Shown here in pieces: positions 1,555 to 50,191 of a stretch of 64,000 nt of DNA. Source of the DNA: Ostreococcus lucimarinus. Lineage: Eukaryota. The translations under genes were made by a program, and so were the position numbers. Below the pieces are notes generated by a model. It had not been told where the DNA came from and made no database searches. It was given only the letters and a program-made list of their open reading frames with translations. Numbering within the stretch: the first letter of the stretch is position 1; each line of letters begins with the position of its first letter. The DNA lies in the NCBI GenBank assembly GCA_000092065.1, contig CP000583.1. The stretch is one strand, 5' to 3'.

Positions 1555-1978
1555 GTGCGTATTTTTTAGCCTTCGCGCGACGCGCGACGACGCGCGGGAC
1601 GACGACGCGCGCGAGGGACGCGATCGCATCGCGCGCCATCGATCGACGGCGTGAGATACGCGACATCGCGCGCGCGGCGCGCATCGCGTCGTCGCGACGC
1701 GGGACGTGCGACGCCGCGAAGGGCGTCGCGGGAAGCGATGTCGATGATTATTTGTGATCGCGACGCGACGCGCGTCGGCGTCGCGACGCGTCGCGACGGG
1801 CGAGCGGGCGCTCGATCGCCGCGGCGATAGGATAACCGCGATACGGATATTTTCTATCTGTTTGTTTGACTGGACGAAGCGCGGGCGCGGGGCGGAGGAC
1901 GCGGGTGATTGGATCGATCGTTCGAGCGAAGAGAGGAGACTGACGAAAGAAACGCGATGTGTTTTACGAAATGAACAG

Positions 1979-2614
1979 GCCAAGTCTGTCTCCACGACGG
2001 TCAAGGCTGACATCTACCCGGAATTCGGTACCTACCCGGGCGGTGGCGAATCCCCGATCATCCCGTTCGGCGACGAAAAGAACGCCGAGCGTGAAGTGAT
2101 CCACGGCCGCTGGGCGATGCTTGGCGTCACCGGTGCGTGGGCCGCCGAAAACGGCACCGGCATCCCGTGGTTCACCGCGGGTACCTTGTGCACCCCGGAT
2201 GACTGCACCGCCGTCGCGGACAAGTTCCCGGGCGCCGTCGCCCCGCTCGCGCCGGAAGGCTCTGGCTACCCGTCCTTCTGGAACGTTCTCATCATCGAGA
2301 TCGTTCTCGTCGGCGCCGCGGAAGCGTACCGTACCGGTATCTCCGACTCTCCGTTCGATGATGGCCTCACCGTCGGTGACGTCAACCCGGGTGGACGCTT
2401 CGACCCGCTCGGCCTCGCCGAGTCTGGCGACCTTGAAGAACTCAAGATCAAGGAGCTCAAGCACTGCCGCTTGTCCATGTTCGCGTGGTTGGGCTGCATC
2501 TTCCAAGCGCTCGCCACCCAAGAAGGCCCGATCGCCAACTGGCAATCCCACGTTGCGGACCCGGTTCACTCCAACGTCCTCACCAACGCGGCCAAGGGCT
2601 TCGGCTTCTACTAA
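1979..2614 (+). CDS. Lhcp: Lhcp copy B, exon 2: prasinophyte-type light-harvesting chlorophyll a/b-binding protein
   Basis: Acceptor cag at 1976-1978. The continuous frame reaches TAA at 2612-2614. The peptide carries EVIHGRWAMLG, GPFDPLGL-like and second-helix ELKHCRLSMFAWLG motifs typical of LHC. Confidence 0.85.
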   Translation, partial: AKSVSTTVKADIYPEFGTYPGGGESPIIPFGDEKNAEREVIHGRWAMLGVTGAWAAENGTGIPWFTAGTLCTPDDCTAVADKFPGAVAPLAPEGSGYPSFWNVLIIEIVLVGAAEAYRTGISDSPFDDGLTVGDVNPGGRFDPLGLAESGDLEELKIKELKHCRLSMFAWLGCIFQALATQEGPIANWQSHVADPVHSNVLTNAAKGFGFY

Positions 2615-2914
2615 GCGGTTCACCGCCTTGGTAGCTTCGTCATAGGGTAGCTTGATCGGCGGCCGTCGACTTCGCGTCTACGGTCACCTCCAAGATTTCT
2701 CTGACAGCGCTGGGAATTCCCGACTGCTTTTGGGGCTTTGTCTCTTCAATAACATTCGTTTTAATGATGCATCTCTCGATGTTTGATTACTCTTCGCCTC
2801 CGCGTCGCCGTCGCCGCGCTCTGGATAGCCCGCAGACGCGCGTCCCGGCATCTTGCCCCACACACGCGCGCGCGCGTTCCCTTCGCCCCCGTGGCCGGAT
2901 CGAACGCGAAGAAC

Positions 2915-4462
2915 ATGGCGACGACGATCGCTTCGCGCGCCGTCGCGGCGACGACGCCCCGCGCGCGCGCGCGCGCGCGAACGAATCCCCGCGCGTCGTC
3001 CACCTCGCGTCGGACCCGCGCGATCGCCGACGCCAACGCCGAGGCGACGGCCGAGGACGCGCGCGAGCTCGCGGCGTGGTTATCCTACGACAAGGGCGTG
3101 GACGCGAGCGGATTAGTGTTCAAAGAGGGCGCGAGAGGCGAGGTGGAGGTGGCCCTGCGCGGAGACGTCGACGCCGGGGCGCGCGTGCTCGCGGTGCCGC
3201 AAGACTGCGCGGTGACGTCCGTGGACGTCGACGCGCACCCGATCGTCAGCGGATTGGCCAAGGGGCGACCAGAGCTCGTCGGGTTGGCGCTGTGGTTGTG
3301 CGCGGAGCGCATCAAGGGTGGAGCGAGCGATTGGGCGCCGTACGTGAAGACGCTCGCGGCGAATCCAGACGCGCCGTTGTTTTGGACCGAGGCGGAAGAT
3401 TTCGCGCTGTTGAAGGGGTCGCCGATCGTGAATGATGCGGTAGAACGCTCGAGGAGCGCGAGGGAGGAATATGCGGCTATCGTGGAGGTCATTAAGGGTG
3501 ATCCCACGGCGTTTCCCGCGGAGGCGTACGAGTTTTTCACCGAGGAGCGCTTCGTGGACGCGCTGGCGACGGTGTGCGCCAAGGCGACTTGGTTACCCAC
3601 GGCATCGTGCTATGCGTTGGTGCCTTTGTTAGACGTCATCACGATTGCTGGATCTCCGGTGCCGGGCGTTTCACCGCCCTCGGCGAAGGATGGAATCGCG
3701 CGGTGCGCTGCGGATTACGACGTCGACAGCGCGTGCGTGGTTTTATCCGCCGTCGTCAAGGCGCCGGCGAACTCGCGAGTCGTACAGTTGGATCCGTTGC
3801 AAAGGAACAACGGTGAGCTGTTCTTGAACACTGGTCGCGTTGATCAGAAGCATCCAGGGGATTATTTGTACATGCGGACCGAGATTCAGCCCTCCGATCG
3901 CTTATTTTCGGCGAAGAAGCAAGTCCTCGAGGGTATGGGTTTCACCGCCGAAAACCAGTACTTTCCGGTGTATGAAGATCGTATGCCGACCCAGTTGTAC
4001 TCTTATCTTCGTTTTGCCCGCGTTCAAGATCCCGGTGAGATGATGGCGGTGTCGTTTGAGGAGGATAAAATCGTTTCGGTGATGAACGAATACGAAATTC
4101 TTCAGCTTCTCATGGGCGATTGTCGAGAGTTAATGTCTGAATACGACACGAATGAGGAAGACGAGCTGAACCTGTTGAAGCTCTCGGACACGATGCGCGT
4201 GCGAGAGATCGAGGCGGCCAAGCTTAGAATGTCCGAGAAGAAGCTCATCGGTTGCACGATGACGGCGGTTCGCAAGCGCTTGGCGCCGATTCGTGGCATC
4301 CCAACCAAGCAAGGCATGGAAGACCCGAACCAGGATCTTTTAGACATTTTCAACGCGATCGAGAGCATTCCAAATAAGCCAAAGGAAATGATGGAAGACT
4401 TCAAGAAGTGGGCGCGTGGGGACTACGAAGACATCCCCAAAGGCGGGGGTGGCTGCGGGTAG
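2915..4462 (+). CDS. SET-domain lysine methyltransferase, Rubisco LSMT / SETD3-like, with an Ala/Arg/Ser-rich N-terminal presequence
   Basis: First ATG in the ORF is at 2915. It has a SET-like core (…LFWTEAEDFALLKGSPI…) and a C-terminal Rubisco-LSMT substrate-binding-like region. Gene model is single-exon. Confidence 0.6.
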   Translation: MATTIASRAVAATTPRARARARTNPRASSTSRRTRAIADANAEATAEDARELAAWLSYDKGVDASGLVFKEGARGEVEVALRGDVDAGARVLAVPQDCAVTSVDVDAHPIVSGLAKGRPELVGLALWLCAERIKGGASDWAPYVKTLAANPDAPLFWTEAEDFALLKGSPIVNDAVERSRSAREEYAAIVEVIKGDPTAFPAEAYEFFTEERFVDALATVCAKATWLPTASCYALVPLLDVITIAGSPVPGVSPPSAKDGIARCAADYDVDSACVVLSAVVKAPANSRVVQLDPLQRNNGELFLNTGRVDQKHPGDYLYMRTEIQPSDRLFSAKKQVLEGMGFTAENQYFPVYEDRMPTQLYSYLRFARVQDPGEMMAVSFEEDKIVSVMNEYEILQLLMGDCRELMSEYDTNEEDELNLLKLSDTMRVREIEAAKLRMSEKKLIGCTMTAVRKRLAPIRGIPTKQGMEDPNQDLLDIFNAIESIPNKPKEMMEDFKKWARGDYEDIPKGGGGCG

Positions 4463-41515: not shown

Positions 41516-44500
41516 CTAAATCGTTTCACCCGTGGCCTTCTCGTATTGCGTCTTGAGAGCGACGACGAGACGCCAATCATCCTTCGTCAATTCTTCACGG
41601 AAGCTTTCCTTCAACATGTCGATCGACTCGCGCGTCATTCTCGATACGAGCTGATCTTTATGATCAAAATGGCGACCGTAAAGTCGCGAAGATTCACTGG
41701 GCGTTCTCGGTTCGATCTTCATCGCCACAGATTGACCGGCAGTTGCCTTCTTCACCTCCTTGTGGTTGAGTTCCATCGAAGCAATCTTACCAATGTCGAT
41801 GTAACCTTGCGATGGGATGCAAATTTGCGTCCCCACGCGAGCGACCCCCTTGACAATGTCAACACCAACGACGATGGGATCGCGCTTGTTGAACACGCAG
41901 TTGGGCATGATTTGCAAGATGCAAGGGAAGTTGACGTGCTGCGACGCGGCTTCACGCTTGTCTGCCTTGACCTTTTCCATGTACGCCGTGAATTGATCAA
42001 ACAAGTGGTAGATGATGTCGGCGGTGAAGATGCGAACGTTGAGCTCTTCGCCCATTGCGTGCGCCTCCTTCGTCACCGGCACGTCAAAAGCCAGAATAGT
42101 AGCATACTCGGGCTTTTTGCGCTCGTGCATGACGCTCGCACCCATGACGTCCCGTTTGTTTACCGGGCCAATGGCGATGCCGGCGACGGGAATTTTGACC
42201 GCGTCAGATTTCAAGAACTCCAACAAGGCTTCCAAAGAACCGAGCGTAGACGCCTGCACGTACACGCCTTCGCCACTCTTATCAACACGAGCAAGCACGC
42301 CCTTCATATCACTTAAAACCTCTTCCCTGAGTTCCATTTCGTCGTCTTCAGGATCGAGCACCAAAAGAGACGTACCTGCGACAGCTTTCTCTAATCCAGT
42401 GGCGACGATCTTGATCCCTTGAGCGCCTTCGATTTCCTTGTGATGAATGTAGCTTCCCTTCACCCGCATCTCTCGCATGGGCTGCGGTGTAAGTAATGCA
42501 CGAATTTGAGTCGTAATCGCCCCCTCTAACCCAGCAACGACGATTGTCTGTCCTTCCTTGAGCTTACCGTTGATGAGAATGACGTCAACGCTCGTACCGA
42601 GACCTTCGATCATCTTCACTTCAAGCACGGTACACTGTACGGCAGGCACGTATTGAATGCGCTCGTTCATGCGATTTTGGCACAAGTCAACAAGCGTTTG
42701 CAAAATGTCCGGCATCCCCTCACCCGTAATAGCAGAGGTTGGGATGATGTTGATGAAAGTACGTGGGTCCGGGTTCTCCCAGTACTTCGCCACGTTCAAA
42801 CCTTGCTCAGCAAACTCGATGACGATCTTGTCGTAACGATCTTGGAACTCGCGTCGAGCGTGATCCTTTTGTAAGGACAAAGTCTCCTGTGTTGGGAAGT
42901 TGGTATTTTCCGTCCAGTCGTACATGCGATCGATTTTGTTGAGCGCAATCACAAAAGGCGTCTTTCGCGATCGAAGCATGTTCAACGATTCTATCGTTTG
43001 CGGCTCTAAGCCGTGCATGATATCAACGACGAGAATGGCGAGATCACAAAGTGACGAACCTCTCGAACGCAAGTTTGTGAAAGACTCGTGTCCTGGGGTA
43101 TCGATAACGAGCAAACCGGGAACTCGCAAGTCCCATTCACCCTTGTTTAGCTGCGCCGTTCGCTCGAGGAGAGACTCCTTGGGAATAAAAGTCGCACCAA
43201 TTTGCTGCGTAATACCGCCAGCTTCTCCGTCTTGGACGTTGGTTCGTCGAATGTTATCCAATATCTTCGTCTTACCGGTATCAACGTGCCCCATGATGCA
43301 TATAATTGGGCAACGAAGCTTGCTTGGACTGCGCTTTGCCTTGGCCAACTCGAAGCGTGCCAAACGCGCAATCTTTGCCGCCTCCATGCGCTCTTCGTGT
43401 TCACGTTGACGGACGTCATCGCTATCCTCGCGGTAATCCGAGCTATCGGAGTACTCAGAGCTGTCGCTGTCGGAATCAGAGTCAGAATCAGAGCCAGAAT
43501 CAGAGCCAGATCCTTCGTCAGATTCTTCGTCAGAGCCCGAAGCGTCAGCAGCTTCCTTGGCTGCGGCGGCCTTTTCCTTGGCTTCCTTGGCCCACGGCTT
43601 TTCAGCCGCAATCTTCGCCTTGATCGCCTTCTCCGCCGCGAATTTGGCCGCAGCCTCAGCCGCTTTCTTCTCCGTCTCGTGACGTTTCTGCTCGGCGGCC
43701 TCTTTCTCCGCCTTTTCCTTAGCCAAGCGCTCCTCCTCTTCTTTCTGACCCGGAAGGATAATCTCCTTGTCGTCCCAGTCTTCCGCTTCCCAGTCATCGG
43801 CAGCGTCGTCATCTTCAGCTTCGGCGGCGAGTCGGGCTTCTTCTTCAGCTTTAGCCTTCGCTTCAGCCTCAGCACGCTCTTGTTGTTGCTTTCGACGCTC
43901 TTCCATCTCTTTCTTCTTTTTGCGATCGTCGTAAACCGGACGTTTCGGCTTGATAACTTCGTCGAGTTTATCTGCGTCAATCCCAGACTTGGCTAACATT
44001 TGCTGGCGCATCGCGGCTAAACGCGCTTGTTCCGCCTTTTGCTTGTTGCTGAGAAGTTTGCCTTCGGCACGGAGGCGCTCCTTCTTCTCCTTCTCTTTTT
44101 GTTTCTTTGCCTCGCGACGCGCTTCCTCCTCTTCTTCTTTTTGTTTCTCAAGACGTTCAGCCTCCTCCGCCGCGGCTCTTGCCTCGGCTTCAGCTTTGGC
44201 TTGAGCCTCTTCCACCTCCTTACGCTTTTGCATTTCTGCTTGAAGGGCGAGAATTCTCGCACTTGGCGCGCCGGCAGACTTTTGCTTCTTCTCCGCCTCT
44301 GCCGCCGCCTTGGCCTTGGCTTCCTTTTCTTTTTGCTTCTTCTTGAGCTTCTTCTTTTGCGACGCCGAAAGCTCTTTGCCATCTTCAAGCGCATCGCCGT
44401 CATCATCATCATCATGATTATTGCCATCGGTAGCAGGCGCCGCATCGGCGGCATCACCGCCAGCTGCGGCTTCCGCGGCTTCGCGCTCGGCTTTCAATCG

Positions 44501-45778
44501 GCGCTTCTTTGCCGCTTTACTCTCGCCAGCCGGCTCTTCTGGCTTGGCCTCGATTTTGATGTCAAGCTCGGCCAAAAGAGCGTCGAGGTCTTCCTCGTCG
44601 TCGGCCGCTTGCTTACCACCTTTTTTCTTTTTCTTCTTGTCCTTCTTCGAGCCACCAGTTTCGTTGGCGACGAGTTCGGGTTCGGGTTCGGGTTCGGGTT
44701 CGGGCGTCTTTTCCTTCTTCGTCGTCCCGGGCGCTTTCAAAGGCACATCATCGCCGATGGAAAAAGCAGACTTATCGAGCTCGTACACGCCATCCGCGCT
44801 ATCGGCCCAACCCATCTCCACCGCGCTGAGAATCATACCTTCACTCATGACGCCGCGCAACGGCGTCTTGTCGATGACTTGGCCGCTGGCGGGGATTTTC
44901 ACGCCGACGCCTGCAAAAATCACCAACAAACCTTTTCTGGCGTTGGCACCACCGCACACGCACCGTTTCGGTTCGTCGCCGCCGAAATCGACGGTGCAAA
45001 CTTGCAGACGATCCGCCATCGGGTGCTTGCTGCATTCGATGATCTTACCCACGACGAGTTCGGGTTCGGCGACGAGCTTTTTCTTTTTCTTCTTTTTGAG
45101 ATCAATCGCGACTTCCACCGCCGCGGCTTCCTCGTCGGCATCCATGAGATCGGCAAAGCTTCCCTTCTTCTTCTTCTTTTTGTCTTTCGTGTCCGCGGTG
45201 CGAGACTCCGAGGCTTCTTCGTCGTCCTCCGCGTCCTCGTCTTCGTCGTCCGCCATCAAAGCCGCGAAGCCGCCCTTTTTGGATTTCTTCTTTTTATCCT
45301 TCTTCGGCTTGACATCCGCCTCCATCTCCTCTTCCTCGTCGTCATCATCGCCACCACCCATCAACGGATCGTTCACGTCGTCGTCCGACCCCATCAACGC
45401 CGCGAAACCACCTTTTTTGGATTTCTTCTTCTCCTTCTTCGGCTTCGTCGCCGCCGCCGCCGCGCGCACCTCCTCCTCCGACGCGTCGTCCGCGTCATCC
45501 GCGTCGTCATCCGACCCCATCAACGCCGCGAAACCTCCCTTTTTAGACGTTTTCTTCCCCTTCCTCGGTTTCACCGCGCGCGTCTCCCCCTCGTCCGCCT
45601 CCTCTTCGTCCGCCTTCTTCGCCGCCGCCGCCAGAGGGTCCAAATCCTCGTCCGAGTCCTCCCCTCGTCCTCTCCCGCCCCGCCCGCCCTTGCCCTTCGC
45701 CGCCTTTCGCGCCTTTTTCATCTCCGTCTTCGACATCGCTCTCGCGCCGTCGTCCGCGTCTTTCGCGCCGTCGTCGCG

Positions 45779-45816
<38 letters not shown>

Positions 45817-45898
45817 CCGAGGGATCGACCCCGTCGTCGTCGTCGCTCGAATCGTCCCCTCGCTTGCCCTTGCGCCCGGCTCGCTTGCCCTTCGCCAT
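41516..45898 (-). CDS. EIF5B: Translation initiation factor eIF5B (IF2 family GTPase) with a long K/E/D-rich N-terminal region that contains an EMAP/Myf-type tRNA-binding OB domain
   Basis: G domain IICIMGHVDTGKT, DTPGHESF, NKIDR; domains II-IV are collinear with eIF5B to the C-terminus. A Myf-like block LVVGKIIECSKHPMADRLQVCTVDFGGDEPKRCVCGGAN…RGVMSEGMILSAVE sits in the same open frame. ATG (MAKGKRAGRKGKRG…) at complement of 45896-45898. Confidence 0.85.
45145..45550. repeat. Four tandem peptide repeats (K-rich-GGFAALMGSDDD-acidic) inside the eIF5B N-terminal region
   Basis: SKKGGFAALMGSDDD occurs three times plus a degenerate GSFADLMDAD copy in the translated minus frame. Confidence 0.7.
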
Positions 45899-46034
45899 CG
45901 CGCGGCGCGCGGGAACGTTCTCTCTCGCGCGCCGTCCGTCGTCGGCGCGCGCTCGCGCGTCGCGCGCGCGTCGCGGTGTGTCCATCGCGCCGTCGCATCT
46001 TTTAAACGTCGAGACATCGCGACGCGCGCGCGCG

Positions 46035-46496
46035 ATGCGCGCCGACGCGCGCGCGCTCGGCGGCGACGACGACGCGCGCGACGTCGCGCGCGACGTCGAC
46101 GACGGCGACGCGACGCGCGCGATGGCCGACGCCGACGCCGACGCCGACGACGCGCGCGAGGACGCGACGACGACGACGACGACGACGCCGCCGACGAACG
46201 AACGACGCGACGCGCGCGAGCGCGCCGGCGACGTCGCGCGCGCGTCGCTCGCGATCGCGCTGCTCGCGGTCGCCCTCGCGAGGCTGCGACGGTGGGCGAG
46301 GGGCGACGGCGACGCGCGCGGCGGCGCGCCGGGACGCGTCAGCAGGCGCTTCGCCGCGCGGCACAGGAAGTGTAATCGATGCGGCGCGCGCGGGTCGGCG
46401 GTCAAGGTGAAGTGCGAGCGGTGTAAAAGGTGCTGGTACTGCTCGCAGACGTGCAAGAAAGCGGCGTGGGCGCTGGAAATTTGCGAGTGTTGTTGA
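46035..46496 (+). CDS. Hypothetical small protein with one TM helix and a C-terminal Cys-rich (MYND-like) zinc-finger motif
   Basis: ATG at 46035. …SLAIALLAVALARL… then CNRCGARGSAVKVKCERCKRCWYCSQTCKKAAW…CECC. Low-complexity Ala/Arg/Asp-rich middle. Confidence 0.3.
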   Translation: MRADARALGGDDDARDVARDVDDGDATRAMADADADADDAREDATTTTTTTPPTNERRDARERAGDVARASLAIALLAVALARLRRWARGDGDARGGAPGRVSRRFAARHRKCNRCGARGSAVKVKCERCKRCWYCSQTCKKAAWALEICECC

Positions 46497-47473
46497 CGCC
46501 GGCGCCGGCGGCGCGGCGTTTGAAATCGCGCGCGCGGCGTCGCGCGACGCGTGAACGATCGCGTGCTCGTGCATTGTAATCGTCGCGAACGCGAATGCGT
46601 CTAAATGCGTCGCGTTTCTGCGTTCACCGAGTGCGTTTCACGGCTCGACGCGTTCGCGTTCGCGTCGGCGCGCGCGTTCGCGGCGTCGCGAACCGACCCC
46701 CCCTCCGAGCGCCGCGGCGCGCCGCACATCGCCGCGTCGAGCCATGAGCGACAAGATCGTCGAGGCGCAGAAGGTGCGACGGACGACGCGCGCGCTTCGC
46801 GACGCGCGAAAACGGCGCGACGCGCCATCGCGACGTCGGATAAAGCGTCAACGATTCGATCGCGACGCGCTAGGGCTCGACCGCGAGCGACGACGCGCGC
46901 GCGGACGACGCGCGCGCGACGCGGACGACGACGCACCTCGAGGCGCGCTAGCGCTCGACCGAACGACTGACGAGACGCGCGCGCGGCGTCGCGGCGCCGC
47001 TCGACAGTTTTTTCAATCCCGAAAGGGATTCGTGCACCTGAAGCGAGGCGGCGTCGATCGCGTCACGAGCGTGTTGATACCCGTCGGCGCGGTGTGCGTC
47101 ATGAGCGCGATGCTCGCGAAAGGTGCGCGAAACGTCAAAGCGCGGCCCGTCGACGCGCGTCGACGGCGCGACGGAAGCGCTTCCGTCGGTGGTTTCGAAG
47201 ACGCGACGGATGGGCGAGCGGGACGGGACGGCGAGACTGACGACGACGGATCGACGCGCGATCGATCGCAGGCGTGATGGATCTCACCACGGGGCGAAAT
47301 AAGAAGGAAGGGTTCTGATCGCGATCGACGCGAACGATCGAGGGCGTCGAGCGACGCGTTGTAATTACAATCGACTAGCGTAACCGAACGGCGCGACGGA
47401 CGACGACACACCTCGACGCGACGCGACGTCGATGCCGTCCGACGTCGTCGCGCGCGCGTGAAGGCGCGCGGGG

Positions 47474-50191
47474 ATGTCGACGCGCGCGAAATCGATCGCC
47501 GCGGCGACGCTCGGCGTCGTTTTCGTCGCGCTGTGCGCTGTGCGCGCTGATGGATTCGCAATCGAGCCGCGGTGCGTCGACGACGCGCGACGCTACGACG
47601 ACGTCACGCGACGCGCGCTGACGACGCGGGCGACGTGCGCGGACATCGCGCGCGGCGCGGAGGCGCTCGAAGCGCTCGGAGCGTCGACGTGCGGTGCGGT
47701 GGGCGCGCGCGCGCGATTTCTGGCGGCGAAGCTCAACGCGGCGACGGGCGCGTGGGACGACGCGAAGCGCGCGCTCGCGGGCGACGAGACGAGCGAATTA
47801 TGGAAAACAATAGATGAGATGTCGCGCGCGGCGCGGGTGGGGTCGGAGGCGGGAAGACGAGGGGATTGGGTGAAGGCGTACGCGGCGGCGAACGCGGCGG
47901 TTGAGGCGAGCGCGTGCGCTTTGGATCCGAGGACGTTTCAAGCGCGCGCGCGCGCGGCGTTGAAGTTGGCGATGCACGGAAGGGCGTTCGTGGATGCGAA
48001 ACGCGCGCTCGCGCTGGGGGGGGGGAAGTCAGAGGCGTACGAGACGATGGCGACGGCGTTGAGCGAGTTGGCGGATTCCGCCGAGCGGTTAGCCGACGCC
48101 GAGACGCTGGCGCGGCGTTGTTTGCGGTACAGCCCGGACAACGTCGAGTGTTTGGTAGTTAGAAAAAATATTAGGCGAGCGCTGTTGGTTTGGCGCGAAG
48201 CGAGCGATGCGGAATCGCTCGGGGATTGGAGTTCGGCGATCGACGCTCTGAGGGAGCTGCGAAACGCGACGCGCGGCGGCGCGTTTGAGGCGTTGAAATT
48301 CGACGCGCTCGTCGCGTCGTGTCGCGTGAATGGTAAACGAGAACGCGCGCGTTGGGAGACCAGCACGACGAGAAAGAGGGTTCCCGCCAAACTCGTCGCG
48401 GATGCGATCGATCAGTGCACAGACGCGTTGTCCGAGCTCATGTCGCGCTGCGGCGAAAGTCGCGTCGACGACGTCCCGAATTCGTATTACGCTCGCGCGT
48501 GGATGCGCGCGCTGAGCGCGAACGTAGATGGTGCGATGGCCGACGTAGCGGGGATTGAACGTTCGGTAGATGTATCGTCCGACGATTGGAAGGCGAACGT
48601 TGAGGCGTTGCGAAAAGCCATCGAAGAGGCGCGCGAAGCAAACGCTCCAAAGGATTTATACGCGATTCTGGGATTGACGCGCGAAGATGCACAAGCGGAA
48701 GATTGGCTTCGTGTTTTGAAACGTGCGTACAGAAAGCTGGCACTACTATTACATCCCGATAAAAATCCGGCGGTCGATAAAGAGGAGGCGGAGGAGAAAT
48801 TCGATGAACTCGTCAAGGCGTACAAGATTCTGTCAAGCGAGACGCTTCGTCGCGAATACGACGAGACCGGCAAGGTGAACTTGGGCGTTGACGCGCAAGC
48901 GACGAACGACTGGTTCGACAGTCACGCCGATAGCCGTCGCACGAATGACGGTCAACCGCCAAACGATGGACTTAACGAGGATGATTACATCTTCCGGTTT
49001 GATAAGCGCGACGCCGGGGCGGATGGCCGAGCGGCTGGTCAGTACGTGCACAAAGAAACGGGCGAACGGGTATTCGGTGAACGCGACGTGCGCCCAGAAG
49101 AAGATCAACAGGACGACGTCTGTGCGAAGAAAAAAGGATACTGCATCGCCGGACGAGGCGGCGCCGAGGCTCCGTCGCGCGCCAAGCACGTTCCGGGGGT
49201 CGAATCGCTCGAGGTGAAAATCGTTACGCCGAATCTGCTCCCGGGAGATACCGTGGCGGCGAGGCTCGTTCGAAACATCTTTGGACTTCACAAGCTTGAG
49301 TTCATCTTTGCTTTTGACGTCGAGTTACCGAGCGAAGAAGTTCGCGACAAGACTTTTCAAGACGCAGCGAAAACGCGTTTGAGAAGACTCGTGCGTACCC
49401 TGCACGCGTCCCTCGTCGGCCGCGACGGGGCGTCGACGCTCACGAGCATGATTGAAGAGCACATCGTGAGTTCGTCGTCTTCAGAAGACGATTCGATCGT
49501 AGACTACGTGGCATCCGCGATGAGCGGTCGCGCACCACGCGTCGGATCGCCTCACGAGACGCGGGATCTTCTGGATCGCTTTGCGTCGCGCGCCACGCGC
49601 GAGATGAGACGGCTCGGCGCCTTGGGACTCAATTCCGACGATCGCACCGATAATTTCGTGCGCGTCGCGCGTGACTTGATGTTCAACCCCTTGGTATCGT
49701 CTCACTTGCTCTCATTCACCGCCGACGACGCCGAAGACGCCTCACAGGTTCGAAGTCTCGTCGCCCTCTGGCGCGACGACGTCCCCAGCCGCGTCCTCGT
49801 CGACGGCGACGTCCTCTCCTACGAAATCAAATTCGTCGATTCCGACAAGTCTCCCGACGCCGTGCGAGCGATGTGCGCCACCTTAGACTTCGAAACCACC
49901 GCGGGCGACCGCCTCAGCGCCTTCCCCGACGCCATCGATCAATTCGGCCTCGCCGCCGCCGTCGCCGCCGTCAATTTCCGCGACGTCCTCGCGCGAGACG
50001 CCGTAAACGGTTGGATCTCGCGTCGCATCCCCATCCCTTCCGGCCTCATCGGCGCGCGCGTTTCGTCCTGGTTCATCGTCGCCGCCCGCATCGACGCCGG
50101 TCGCGCGTCCACGCGCGTCCGCGAGGTCAAAATCATCAACGCCTTCGCGGACGCCGACGACTTCGCCATCCTCGAGCCGCGCGGACCCTGA
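47474..50191 (+). CDS. DnaJ (J-domain) protein with an N-terminal signal peptide and a TPR-like helical region (DNAJC3/P58IPK-like architecture) plus a long C-terminal extension
   Basis: Signal-like MSTRAKSIAAATLGVVFVALCAVRADG. J domain DLYAILGLTREDAQ…AYRKLALLLHPDKNP…KFDELVKAYKILSSETLRREYD with the HPD motif. Confidence 0.65.
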   Translation: MSTRAKSIAAATLGVVFVALCAVRADGFAIEPRCVDDARRYDDVTRRALTTRATCADIARGAEALEALGASTCGAVGARARFLAAKLNAATGAWDDAKRALAGDETSELWKTIDEMSRAARVGSEAGRRGDWVKAYAAANAAVEASACALDPRTFQARARAALKLAMHGRAFVDAKRALALGGGKSEAYETMATALSELADSAERLADAETLARRCLRYSPDNVECLVVRKNIRRALLVWREASDAESLGDWSSAIDALRELRNATRGGAFEALKFDALVASCRVNGKRERARWETSTTRKRVPAKLVADAIDQCTDALSELMSRCGESRVDDVPNSYYARAWMRALSANVDGAMADVAGIERSVDVSSDDWKANVEALRKAIEEAREANAPKDLYAILGLTREDAQAEDWLRVLKRAYRKLALLLHPDKNPAVDKEEAEEKFDELVKAYKILSSETLRREYDETGKVNLGVDAQATNDWFDSHADSRRTNDGQPPNDGLNEDDYIFRFDKRDAGADGRAAGQYVHKETGERVFGERDVRPEEDQQDDVCAKKKGYCIAGRGGAEAPSRAKHVPGVESLEVKIVTPNLLPGDTVAARLVRNIFGLHKLEFIFAFDVELPSEEVRDKTFQDAAKTRLRRLVRTLHASLVGRDGASTLTSMIEEHIVSSSSSEDDSIVDYVASAMSGRAPRVGSPHETRDLLDRFASRATREMRRLGALGLNSDDRTDNFVRVARDLMFNPLVSSHLLSFTADDAEDASQVRSLVALWRDDVPSRVLVDGDVLSYEIKFVDSDKSPDAVRAMCATLDFETTAGDRLSAFPDAIDQFGLAAAVAAVNFRDVLARDAVNGWISRRIPIPSGLIGARVSSWFIVAARIDAGRASTRVREVKIINAFADADDFAILEPRGP

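What the first reader, a model, noticed from the sequence alone, without database searches (positions are those of the whole stretch)
44740..45080. EMAP/Myf-type tRNA-binding OB domain embedded in the N-terminal region of eIF5B
A ~105-aa block (LVVGKIIECSKHPMADRLQVCTVDFGGDEPKRCVCGGAN…LRGVMSEGMILSAVE…) matches the Myf/Trbp111/EMAP-II/Arc1p tRNA-binding fold. That fold is normally found on aminoacyl-tRNA-synthetase cofactors. Here it lies in the same uninterrupted frame as the eIF5B GTPase, flanked by Lys-rich linkers. I am not aware of eIF5B normally carrying a dedicated tRNA-binding OB domain. If real, it suggests direct initiator-tRNA capture by this lineage's eIF5B.
Basis: partly seen in the sequence, partly recalled or inferred. 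Interest (0 to 1): 0.75.

Follow-up and report, generated by a model that had tools for sequence, protein, structure and literature searches.

The report
Bacterial-type tRNA-binding domain inside algal eIF5B
The translation start factor eIF5B of this Ostreococcus-like green alga, and of green algae in general but not land plants, fungi or animals, carries in its floppy N-terminal arm a well-conserved small RNA-binding domain most similar to one from bacterial phenylalanyl-tRNA synthetase; this looks like an undescribed tethered tRNA/RNA-binding accessory on a core ribosome factor.

Summary
Window 44747-45058 (minus strand) encodes a ~105-aa OB domain. It matches Pfam tRNA_bind (E 1.9e-17, 63.6 bits, cutoff 27). 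It lies in one uninterrupted 1460-codon ORF (45898-41516) with the eIF5B GTPase core.

The interpretation needs three corrections.
1. The domain is of the bacterial PheRS beta-subunit B2 / YtpR type (about 40% identity, TM 0.78). It is not of the EMAPII/Arc1p/Trbp111 type (18-24% identity, TM 0.55-0.61).
2. The fusion is not specific to this lineage. It occurs in Mamiellophyceae, Trebouxiophyceae, Chlorophyceae and the zygnematophytes Mesotaenium and Closterium, including ORFs derived from transcriptomes. It is absent from Spirogloea, all ~100 land plants sampled, fungi and animals.
3. Nothing indicates specificity for initiator tRNA. Part of the Trbp111 pocket for the tRNA 3'-CA end is kept (S82, M85, G79), but the critical Arg75 is not.

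The domain is under purifying selection (dN/dS 0.06-0.10; flanks 0.16-0.52). It is the only globular fold in an otherwise disordered or helical 860-aa N-terminal arm, and a poly-Lys run precedes it, as in Arc1p.

Most likely it is a tethered, non-specific tRNA-acceptor-end or RNA-binding accessory. I found no paper describing it. I rate it a new variant of a known kind, of moderate interest.

The parts
41516..45898 (-). Complete eIF5B coding sequence: 1460 codons plus stop, with no interruption
   Evidence: ORF list and start-codon mapping. The N-terminus MAKGK is shared with relatives P0001, P0004 and P0005. The protein is 99% identical to metagenome proteins that JGI names 'translation initiation factor 5B'.
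45143..45556 (-). Four repeats of a Lys-rich + GGFAALM/GSFADLM + acidic motif (aa 115-252), within the disordered N-terminal 278 aa
   Evidence: Regex mapping. pLDDT is below 50 for aa 1-278. Similar K-rich/FAAL motifs recur in other green-algal eIF5Bs.
45077..45097 (-). Poly-lysine run (KKKKKKK, aa 268-274) six residues upstream of the OB domain
   Evidence: Sequence. It is conserved as K-runs in the Ostreococcus, Mantoniella-type and Bathycoccus-like relatives. It parallels the Lys-rich middle domain that Arc1p needs together with its OB to bind tRNA (PMC11286949).
44747..45058 (-). OB-fold tRNA_bind domain (aa 281-384), PheRS-beta B2 / YtpR type, with a family-specific MGW signature
   Evidence: Pfam PF01588 E 1.9e-17. 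E. coli PheT 3pco_B E 2.4e-18; YtpR-like 3bu2 E 1.9e-13. NCBIfam pheT_bact 1.6e-27 and YtpR 6.2e-26. AF2 pLDDT 87.6. Foldseek TM 0.78 to PheT and YtpR. dN/dS 0.06-0.10 with no indels.
44675..44704 (-). (Pro-Glu)5 repeat linker after the OB domain
   Evidence: Regex. pLDDT below 50 for aa 391-436.
44564..44590 (-). Conserved DLDALLAEL short helix (aa 437-445), a near-invariant N-terminal motif in all aligned green-algal eIF5Bs
   Evidence: Near-invariant columns D437, D439, A440, L441, A443, E444, L445. Helix 435-444 in the model.
43556..44365 (-). Lys/Glu-rich long helices (aa 512-781) linking the N-terminal arm to the core
   Evidence: AF2 helices 512-534, 547-611, 618-638, 656-693, 716-766 and 771-781, with pLDDT mostly 70-90. 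Conserved KKKLKKK and EGKLL motifs.
43424..43555 (-). Acidic Ser/Asp-rich disordered segment (aa 782-825)
   Evidence: Composition and SD repeat. pLDDT below 50 for aa 767-825.
42677..43309 (-). GTPase (G) domain; the G1 motif GHVDTGKT is at 43268-43291
   Evidence: Pfam GTP_EFTU E 1.2e-36. Motif mapping.
42371..42598 (-). eIF5B domain II
   Evidence: Pfam GTP_EFTU_D2 E 3.8e-07, 30.9 bits against a cutoff of 30.3.
41990..42322 (-). eIF5B domain III (IF-2 family domain)
   Evidence: Pfam PF11987 E 7.7e-20.
41705..41926 (-). eIF5B domain IV, the canonical binding site for the acceptor end of Met-tRNAi
   Evidence: Pfam GTP_EFTU_D4 E 6.2e-14. The function is assigned from established knowledge of eIF5B/IF2 (e.g. 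PMC4236685 abstract).

Best explanation
The gene encodes a bona fide eIF5B whose long, mostly disordered or helical N-terminal arm carries one folded module. That module is a monomeric OB domain of the bacterial PheRS-beta B2 / YtpR type, preceded by a poly-lysine run.

I propose that it works as a tethered, sequence-unspecific tRNA/RNA-binding accessory. In this model the OB pocket holds a single-stranded 3' end, most plausibly the universal CCA end of a tRNA, while the adjacent Lys-rich segments contact the RNA body, as in Arc1p. About 480 residues of linker and charged helices let the module reach anywhere on the ribosome. The effect would be to raise the local concentration of tRNA around eIF5B, or to keep eIF5B near tRNA-loaded ribosomal complexes.

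Shown here: the fold, the subfamily, the fusion, its conservation across green algae, and purifying selection. Inferred: RNA/tRNA binding, the 3'-end binding mode, and any effect on initiation. The module was probably acquired from a bacterial-type (possibly organelle-derived) pheT/ytpR gene in an early green alga and lost on the way to land plants; this origin is also inferred.
For: - Fold and family: Pfam tRNA_bind above the gathering cutoff. AF2 gives an OB barrel with pLDDT 87.6. The best structural and sequence matches are PheRS-beta B2 and YtpR. A profile of 22 algal domains hits about 790-aa bacterial PheT proteins at residues ~40-150 with ~120 bits, directly after the eIF5B-type hits.
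- Single gene: one ORF. RefSeq O. tauri eIF5B holds the OB at residues 122-247. Transcriptome-derived ORFs of Stichococcus (P0064), P0327 and Mantoniella (origin assumed) hold OB and GTPase together.
- Functional constraint: dN/dS of the OB is 0.063 and 0.096, against 0.22-0.52 (N-terminus) and 0.16 (linker), with no indels. Eight columns are invariant and ten nearly invariant across chlorophytes and streptophyte algae.
- Binding pocket: S82, G79 and G84 are invariant. M85 is kept in 21/22 sequences. Position 77 is hydrophobic in 22/22, position 78 is R/K in 22/22, and the K33 equivalent is R/K in 18/22 when aligned to Trbp111. In Trbp111 these residues hold C75 and A76 of tRNA (PMC11286949).
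- Lys-rich segment next to the OB: Arc1p needs the same arrangement for tRNA binding.
- Anatomy: the OB is the only globular domain in the N-terminal 860 aa.
- Portability: the B2 domain is also fused to TyrRS and LysRS in CPR bacteria (PMC5370408). An OB of the same MGW-bearing subfamily occurs three times, probably fused behind an ABC-F translation ATPase, in another eukaryote.
- Context: the mammalian eIF5B N-terminal region already has an RNA-linked role in granules and IRES use (PMC10680144).
Against: - No binding data exist for this domain or, to my knowledge, for the isolated PheRS B2 domain. From memory, not checked here, B2 does not contact tRNAPhe in the T. thermophilus PheRS-tRNA complex.
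- The Trbp111 residue whose loss nearly abolishes binding (R75) is Thr in the window and R/K in only 3 of 22 family members.
- Similarity to Trbp111 itself is weak (hhalign probability 88.7%, 21% identity). The pocket comparison rests on a sequence alignment, not a superposition.
- YtpR's only experimental link is a protein partner, GatB.
- Land plants and Spirogloea lost the domain without obvious consequence, so it is dispensable in some contexts.
- eIF5B domain IV already binds the acceptor end of Met-tRNAi, so a second CCA-binding site on the same tRNA would compete rather than cooperate.
Confidence: 0.45

Rival explanations
1. The OB selectively binds Met-tRNAi and lets green-algal eIF5B deliver initiator tRNA itself, in the manner of bacterial IF2 and independently of eIF2.
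For: eIF5B/IF2 factors do recognise the initiator acceptor end. eIF5B can substitute for eIF2-dependent delivery in special cases (PMC6208778 and PMC4236685 abstracts). The OB belongs to a tRNA-binding superfamily. The Trbp111-type pocket may tolerate an aminoacyl group.
Against: The only solved complex of the superfamily reads the universal 3'-CA, and Arc1p's OB served six tRNAs equally, so there is no basis for initiator specificity. The OB and domain IV would compete for the same CCA-Met end. The key Arg75 is not conserved. The closest relatives, PheT B2 and YtpR, have no link to tRNAi.
Confidence: 0.1
2. The OB binds rRNA, mRNA or other RNA rather than tRNA. It serves as a ribosome or RNA tether or a condensate driver, increasing ribosome affinity or RNA-granule formation by the charged N-terminal arm.
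For: The mammalian eIF5B N-terminal region nucleates RNA-containing granules and promotes IRES use. The OB sits among highly charged low-complexity repeats. R75 is not conserved, so the CA-specific pocket may have been remodelled. The family has gained an invariant Trp (W94) that is absent from E. coli PheT in the printed alignment.
Against: The conserved residues are those of the PheT-B2/YtpR signature and of the A76 pocket (S82, M85). All characterised homologues sit in tRNA-handling proteins.
Confidence: 0.22
3. The OB is a protein-protein interaction or oligomerisation module. It recruits a partner, such as an aminoacyl-tRNA synthetase or amidotransferase-like protein, or it dimerises eIF5B.
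For: B. subtilis YtpR, one of the two closest relatives, was found in complex with GatB by cross-linking MS and AlphaFold (PDB 9a77). Trbp111 and CsaA are obligate dimers, and CsaA is a chaperone.
Against: In YtpR the tRNA-binding domain is still assumed to hold tRNA. The domain here matches the monomeric PheT-B2 form through its C-terminal strand (query residues 11-115 align to PheT 45-147). It lacks an EMAPII-type pseudo-dimer extension, because the sequence after it is a disordered PE repeat.
Confidence: 0.1
4. The N-terminal arm is cleaved off, and the OB-containing fragment acts separately from eIF5B, in the way EMAPII is released from p43/AIMP1.
For: Stand-alone N-terminal proteoforms of eIF5B were reported in human, Arabidopsis and Chlamydomonas native proteomics (PMC11297038). 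EMAPII is released by cleavage (reference list shown).
Against: There is no evidence on where the algal cleavage lies relative to the OB. The fusion has been kept in cis across very deep divergences, which argues that linkage to eIF5B matters.
Confidence: 0.08
5. The fusion is an artefact: the OB belongs to a separate gene or transcript, or is removed by splicing.
For: No RNA-seq of this organism was available. Some metagenome gene callers split the region into short proteins (for example P0364, 213 aa).
Against: The frame stays open for 1460 codons. The same architecture occurs in more than 70 eIF5B clusters, in RefSeq O. tauri and in transcriptome-derived ORFs. The linkers between the OB and the GTPase carry conserved eIF5B motifs.
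Confidence: 0.02

Closest known systems
[quoted passage not shown] E. coli 3PCO/6OZ5 chain B residues ~45-147
   Same: This is the best sequence and structure match: about 41% identity, phmmer E 2.4e-18, Foldseek TM 0.78. It shares the HP-AD(K/R)L-VC-VD-G ... (L/I)(R/K)G-x-x-S-x-GM-x-S signature and the C-terminal 'G-x-x-EL' strand. It is also used as a portable add-on fused to other tRNA enzymes.
   Different: Here the host is a translational GTPase, not a synthetase. The domain is embedded in a disordered arm instead of being packed against B1 and B3. The family has gained an invariant Trp in the 'MGW' motif. The protein does not reach the full-length cutoffs of pheT_bact (96 bits against 403), so it is not a PheT.
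YtpR family tRNA-binding proteins (B. subtilis YtpR; S. saprophyticus 3BU2)
   Same: Nearly as close as PheT-B2: NCBIfam YtpR E 6.2e-26; 3bu2 and 9a77_B at TM 0.77-0.78 and 40% identity.
   Different: YtpR is a free-standing ~200-aa bacterial protein with its own N-terminal domain. Its function is unproven; it is a GatB partner. The score here (91.4) is below the family's equivalog cutoff of 100.
Arc1p / AIMP1(p43)-EMAPII / Trbp111 / MetRS C-terminal domains (classical 'Myf/EMAPII-like' tRNA_bind OB folds)
   Same: They belong to the same Pfam family and OB fold. They follow the same logic of an OB appended in cis to translation proteins. Arc1p likewise combines a Lys-rich segment with the OB for tRNA binding. 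S82, M85 and G79 of the 3'-CA pocket are conserved.
   Different: They are much more distant: 18-24% identity, TM 0.55-0.61, hhalign probability 88.7%. The domain here has no EMAPII C-terminal pseudo-dimer domain. Arg75 is not conserved. Its partner is an initiation-factor GTPase, not a synthetase complex.
Canonical eIF5B (human, yeast Fun12, land-plant eIF5B) and bacterial IF2 N-terminal extensions
   Same: The GTPase core (G, II, III, IV) is the same. There is the same long, charged, largely disordered N-terminal region with the conserved DLDALLAEL and EGKLL motifs.
   Different: None of the sampled land-plant (~100), fungal or animal eIF5Bs has a folded OB in the N-terminal region. A 2026 survey of IF2/eIF5B extensions lists only helical termini for eIF5B.

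Membership tests
Pfam PF01588 tRNA_bind (tRNA-binding OB superfamily) | Profile score above the curated gathering threshold | tested here: met
   63.6 bits against a cutoff of 27, E 1.9e-17, profile positions 1-90 of 96.
Pfam PF01588 tRNA_bind (tRNA-binding OB superfamily) | Beta-barrel OB fold | tested here: met
   The AF2 model has pLDDT 87.6 and strands at 12-21, 29-34, 41-45, 55-60 and 75-87. Foldseek probability is 1.00 to more than 50 solved tRNA_bind domains.
Pfam PF01588 tRNA_bind (tRNA-binding OB superfamily) | Actual binding of tRNA | not testable with these tools
   No biochemical data exist. Only partial conservation of the pocket could be shown.
PheRS-beta B2 / YtpR subfamily of the OB | Closest sequence and structure relatives, and shared signature motifs | tested here: met
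   PDB phmmer: the top five hits are PheT and the sixth is YtpR-like. NCBIfam: the top two are pheT_bact and YtpR. Foldseek: the top 21 are PheT or YtpR. In the profile search, ~790-aa PheT proteins follow the eIF5B hits directly.
PheT (phenylalanine--tRNA ligase beta subunit) or YtpR as whole proteins | Full-length equivalog score and the accompanying domains (B3/4, B5, FDX-ACB; or the YtpR N-terminal domain) | tested here: not met
   96.1 bits against a cutoff of 402.65 for TIGR00472, and 91.4 against 100 for NF045760. No B3_4, B5 or FDX-ACB hits in the protein.
Trbp111/EMAPII-type 3'-CA recognition (PMC11286949) | Conservation of pocket residues K33, R75, I77, F78/R78, S82 and M85 | tested here: inconclusive
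   S82 is kept in 22/22 sequences and M85 in 21/22. Position 77 is hydrophobic in 22/22, position 78 is R/K in 22/22, and the K33 equivalent is R/K in 18/22. The R75 equivalent is Thr in the window and R/K in only 3/22. The comparison rests on a sequence alignment only.
EMAPII / Arc1p / AIMP1 architecture | OB followed by a C-terminal pseudo-dimer domain, or a Trbp111-like dimer | tested here: not met
   The OB is followed by a disordered PE repeat with pLDDT below 50. EMAPII 1fl0 aligns at only TM 0.55. The oligomeric state itself cannot be tested.
eIF5B / IF2 translational GTPase | G domain with the GHVDxGKT motif, plus domains II, III (IF-2) and IV, in order | tested here: met
   GTP_EFTU 1.2e-36, D2 3.8e-07, IF-2 7.7e-20, D4 6.2e-14. 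Core identity to fungal, plant and animal eIF5B is 55-63%.

The most novel reading that the evidence does not exclude
Green algae have kept, since before the chlorophyte-streptophyte split, a bacterial or organelle-derived PheRS-B2-type tRNA 3'-end-binding module on eIF5B. This module gives the factor a second, tethered tRNA site. The site would be used either to recruit (initiator) tRNA to the 40S subunit independently of eIF2, or to sense or clear deacylated tRNA on recycled ribosomes. The same module was fused independently to an ABC-F ribosomal ATPase in another eukaryote, which would mark it as a general 'tRNA handle' for ribosome-bound factors. Land plants would then have lost this layer of initiation control.
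Probability: 0.15. Interest if true: 0.8.

Novelty: new variant of a known kind. Interest (0 to 1): 0.55.

Why it matters
eIF5B is a universally conserved core factor. Its N-terminal region is usually dismissed as disordered and dispensable. A folded RNA-binding domain under purifying selection in that region, conserved across green algae and lost in land plants, gives a concrete and genetically tractable handle (Chlamydomonas, Ostreococcus) on what the N-terminal arm does. It extends the rule that 'tRNA_bind OB domains are appended to synthetases and their cofactors' to a ribosomal GTPase, and apparently to an ABC-F factor. It also offers a possible remnant of a bacterial-type PheRS beta subunit in a lineage whose cytosolic PheRS lacks that domain (the last point is from general knowledge, not tested here). 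If the domain does bind tRNA 3' ends, green algae would have an initiation or recycling step with no counterpart in the standard eukaryotic model.

Tried and rejected
- A domain-only profile search in the 90%-clustered database returned only short proteins and fragments. It found none of the full-length eIF5Bs and no new taxa, so it did not help with distribution.
- Literature searches for eIF5B combined with tRNA-binding domain/EMAP, Chlamydomonas, PF01588 or green algae/OB-fold found no description of this architecture. A search for PheRS 'B2 domain' found no paper on B2-tRNA contacts. The statement that B2 does not touch tRNAPhe therefore rests on my memory.
- The Foldseek search against AFDB50, meant to widen taxon sampling and find other architectures, was unavailable.
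- I could not determine the donor lineage (cyanobacterial or other), because the representative library carries no taxonomy. PheT and YtpR score almost equally.
- I considered and rejected the idea that the OB is a separate gene or is removed by an intron.
- I considered and rejected filing the domain as EMAPII/Arc1p-type.
- The antisense and out-of-frame ORFs listed over this region are low-complexity by-products of the GC- and Lys/Glu-codon-rich sequence, so I did not pursue them.
Full report
**1. What is in the sequence**

One ORF runs from 46456 to 41516 without a stop. The conserved start is the ATG at 45898 (MAKGKRAGRKGK...), which gives a 1460-aa protein. The quoted peptide LVVGKIIECSKHPMADRLQVCTVDFGG... 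starts at 45058, and the domain ends near 44747.

Pfam finds tRNA_bind (PF01588) at aa 281-377 with E 1.9e-17 and 63.6 bits, against a gathering cutoff of 27. In the same protein it finds GTP_EFTU, GTP_EFTU_D2, IF-2 and GTP_EFTU_D4, the four domains of the eIF5B/IF2 core.

**2. Which kind of OB domain it is**

All tests place it instead with the bacterial PheRS beta-subunit B2 domain and the YtpR family.

| Test | PheT-B2 / YtpR | Classical EMAPII-like group |
|---|---|---|
| PDB phmmer | E. coli PheT 3pco_B, E 2.4e-18 (residues 45-147); four further PheT chains; YtpR-like 3bu2, E 1.9e-13 | MetRS-C 1mkh, E 5e-06; Arc1p 4r1j, E 4e-04 |
| NCBIfam | pheT_bact 1.6e-27; YtpR 6.2e-26 | metG_C_term 1.3e-05 |
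| Foldseek on the AF2 model | PheT and YtpR, TM 0.75-0.78, 38-42% identity | EMAPII, Arc1p, Trbp111, TM 0.55-0.61, 18-24% identity |

The AlphaFold2 model was built on an alignment of 22 green-algal copies and has pLDDT 87.6. A profile of those 22 copies, searched against 1.84 billion representative proteins, returns a handful of eIF5B-type hits. Straight after them come ~790-aa bacterial PheT proteins matched at residues ~40-150, at about 120 bits.

The protein does not reach the full-length cutoffs of PheT or YtpR and has none of their other domains. It has borrowed the module and is not a member of those protein families.

**3. Is the fusion real, and how widespread is it?**

A search with the whole protein found more than 70 eIF5B clusters that carry PF01588. 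The named ones are listed below.

| Group | Taxa or sequences with the OB |
|---|---|
| Mamiellophyceae | Ostreococcus tauri (RefSeq XP_022838602.1, OB at residues 122-247); Mantoniella antarctica |
| Trebouxiophyceae | Coccomyxa, Symbiochloris, Elliptochloris, Parachlorella, Trebouxia, Stichococcus |
| Chlorophyceae | Volvox africanus |
| Zygnematophyceae (streptophyte algae) | Closterium, Mesotaenium |

The window protein is 99% identical to marine-metagenome proteins and 74-76% identical to the O. tauri type. The window therefore comes from an Ostreococcus-clade alga.

Three full-length ORFs of relatives hold the OB and the GTPase P-loop in one ORF. Two are explicitly transcriptome-derived: Stichococcus MMETSP1473 (P0064) and MMETSP Transcript_11304 (P0327). 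The third is Mantoniella P0054, whose transcriptome origin I assume. This is indirect transcript evidence against a split gene or a spliced-out block.

Absences are equally clear. I scanned 116 top hits of a second search with the domain HMM. These were liverworts, a moss, ferns, Ginkgo, a conifer and about 90 angiosperms. Only six sequences have the OB: Mesotaenium, Closterium, two Trebouxia and two unnamed sequences. Spirogloea muscicola lacks it. Fungal and animal eIF5Bs lack it as well.

The simplest history is a gain in an early green alga and a loss before or at the origin of land plants. The fusion is thus not a peculiarity of 'this lineage'.

**4. Evidence that it is functional**

I compared the window with two relatives whose DNA I fetched (L001, O. 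tauri type; L002, 93% identity).

| Region | dN/dS vs L001 | dN/dS vs L002 |
|---|---|---|
| OB domain (no indels) | 0.063 | 0.096 |
| N-terminal 279 aa (24 and 4 unalignable residues) | 0.22 | 0.52 |
| Downstream linker | not computable | 0.16 |
| GTPase core | 0.02 | ~0 |

- Across the chlorophyte-streptophyte divergence, eight columns are invariant: L28, V44, G62, G79, S82, G84, W94 and G112. Ten more are nearly invariant.
- An AlphaFold2 run on the whole N-terminal 877 aa shows the OB (pLDDT 73-89) as the only globular domain.
  - aa 1-278 and 391-436 are low-confidence, i.e. probably disordered.
  - aa 512-781 form long Lys/Glu helices.
  - aa 782-825 are acidic and disordered.
- The OB is therefore a folded bead on a very long flexible arm, about 480 residues from the G domain.

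**5. How it probably works**

The only solved complex of this superfamily is Trbp111 with tRNA (PMC11286949). There the OB grips the universal 3'-terminal C75-A76 through K33, R75, I77, F78, S82 and M85. The paper also shows that Arc1p needs an adjacent lysine-rich segment as well as the OB.

I aligned the algal family to Trbp111, after confirming that my recalled Trbp111 sequence is 100% identical to 1pyb_A. The result is below.

| Trbp111 position | State in the 22 algal sequences |
|---|---|
| S82, G79, G84 | invariant |
| M85 | kept in 21/22 |
| 77 | hydrophobic in 22/22 |
| 78 | R/K in 22/22 (as in MetRS/EMAPII-type domains, from my recollection of those sequences) |
| K33 equivalent | R/K in 18/22 |
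| R75 equivalent (its mutation nearly abolishes Trbp111 binding) | Thr in the window; R/K in only 3/22 |

A KKKKKKK run sits six residues upstream of the OB. This reproduces the Arc1p arrangement of a 'basic segment + OB'.

My best reading (confidence about 0.45) is a tethered, non-specific binder of a tRNA acceptor end or other RNA 3' end, working together with the Lys-rich flanks. It would concentrate tRNA near eIF5B, or eIF5B near tRNA-loaded ribosomes. The fold, the fusion and the selection are shown. The binding and its consequences are inferred.

The known binding mode reads a feature common to all tRNAs. In addition, eIF5B domain IV already occupies the Met-CCA end.

The rival explanations are:
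- an rRNA, mRNA or condensate tether; the mammalian N-terminal region drives RNA granules and IRES use (PMC10680144);
- a protein-interaction module; YtpR binds GatB;
- release of the arm by proteolysis; N-terminal eIF5B proteoforms were seen in Chlamydomonas (PMC11297038);
- a gene-model artefact, which is now very unlikely.

**6. Supporting context: the module is portable**

The B2 domain is also fused to TyrRS and LysRS in CPR bacteria (PMC5370408). Some PheT proteins carry two copies.

The single best hit of the algal OB profile is a eukaryote-like transcript contig, L003. It encodes three tandem OB copies that share the algal 'MGW' signature, embedded in Lys/Ser/Glu repeats. They lie directly downstream of an ABC-F ATPase half (ABC_tran x2 + ABC_tran_Xtn). 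The two parts are separated only by a 100-N scaffold gap that falls inside identical repeat units. If that contig is one protein, the same OB subfamily has been attached to two different ribosome-binding translation factors. That fits a role on the translation machinery.

**7. Novelty and score**

The architecture is visible in precomputed Pfam annotations and in RefSeq proteins. I found no paper that mentions it. A 2026 survey of IF2/eIF5B extensions, based on 12 eIF5Bs, lists only helical termini.

It is a new variant of a known kind: a tRNA_bind OB domain appended in cis, but to a translational GTPase rather than to a synthetase or its cofactor. Interest is moderate (0.55). The finding is solid, unexpected for initiation specialists and directly testable in model algae. 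Its mechanism, however, is inferred by homology to a subfamily (PheT-B2/YtpR) whose own function is poorly defined.

Noticed in passing
L003 (JGI 3300017250, Ga0186120_100187) 30-1685 and 1645-4212: A transcript-like contig encodes an ABC-F ATPase half (ABC_tran x2 + ABC_tran_Xtn), then Lys/Ser/Glu repeats, then three tandem OB domains of the same MGW-bearing subfamily (P0121 aa 304-420, 454-570, 652-761). The two parts are separated only by a 100-N gap inside identical repeat units. This is probably a second translation-factor fusion of the module, in an unidentified eukaryote.
   Followed up: partly
window 45143-45556 (-), aa 115-252: Four copies of a short linear motif, K-rich + (G)GFAALM / GSFADLM + acidic run, precede the OB. 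Similar 'K-rich + xFAAL + acidic' repeats recur in Volvox (KDMSSLFAALEEDA, at least 4 copies), Parachlorella and others. Land plants and Spirogloea have related repeats (FSGKKKxKKGKKG..DDDEYE; MDALLAELGG). Their function is unknown.
   Followed up: partly
window 44564-44590 (-), aa 437-445: The DLDALLAEL motif is nearly invariant in all aligned green-algal eIF5Bs. From my recollection of the human sequence (DIDLDALAAEIEG near the N-terminus), it resembles the extreme N-terminus of animal eIF5B. If so, the ~430 aa upstream of it, including the OB, would be an N-terminal extension added to the ancestral arm.
   Followed up: partly
window ~45780-45815 (-), aa 29-40: An (Ala-Thr)n microsatellite-like repeat, ATATATATATAT, differs in length and sequence from the 99%-identical metagenome protein P0001 (ATATATARAT; 1458 vs 1460 aa). 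This is population-level indel polymorphism in the disordered N-terminus.
   Followed up: no
P0128, P0140, P0142 (representative library hits): Some ~910-940-aa bacterial PheRS beta subunits carry two tRNA_bind (B2) copies instead of one.
   Followed up: no
P0417 (Spirogloea muscicola SM000001S04473, 1726 aa): This zygnematophyte eIF5B lacks the OB, although Mesotaenium and Closterium have it. It keeps repeated K-rich + MDALLAELGG motifs. This implies either loss within Zygnematophyceae or an incomplete gene model.
   Followed up: partly
window 47474-50191 (+): The neighbouring, divergently oriented ORF (905 aa) contains a J-domain signature (DLYAILGL...LLLHPDKN) after an Ala-rich, TPR-like region. 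It is probably a DnaJ-family co-chaperone and unrelated to the finding.
   Followed up: no
window 45500-47000: GC content rises to 0.71-0.74 across the 5' end of the eIF5B gene and the intergenic region, against 0.49-0.57 over the rest of the gene. The many long antisense or out-of-frame ORFs listed there are composition artefacts.
   Followed up: no
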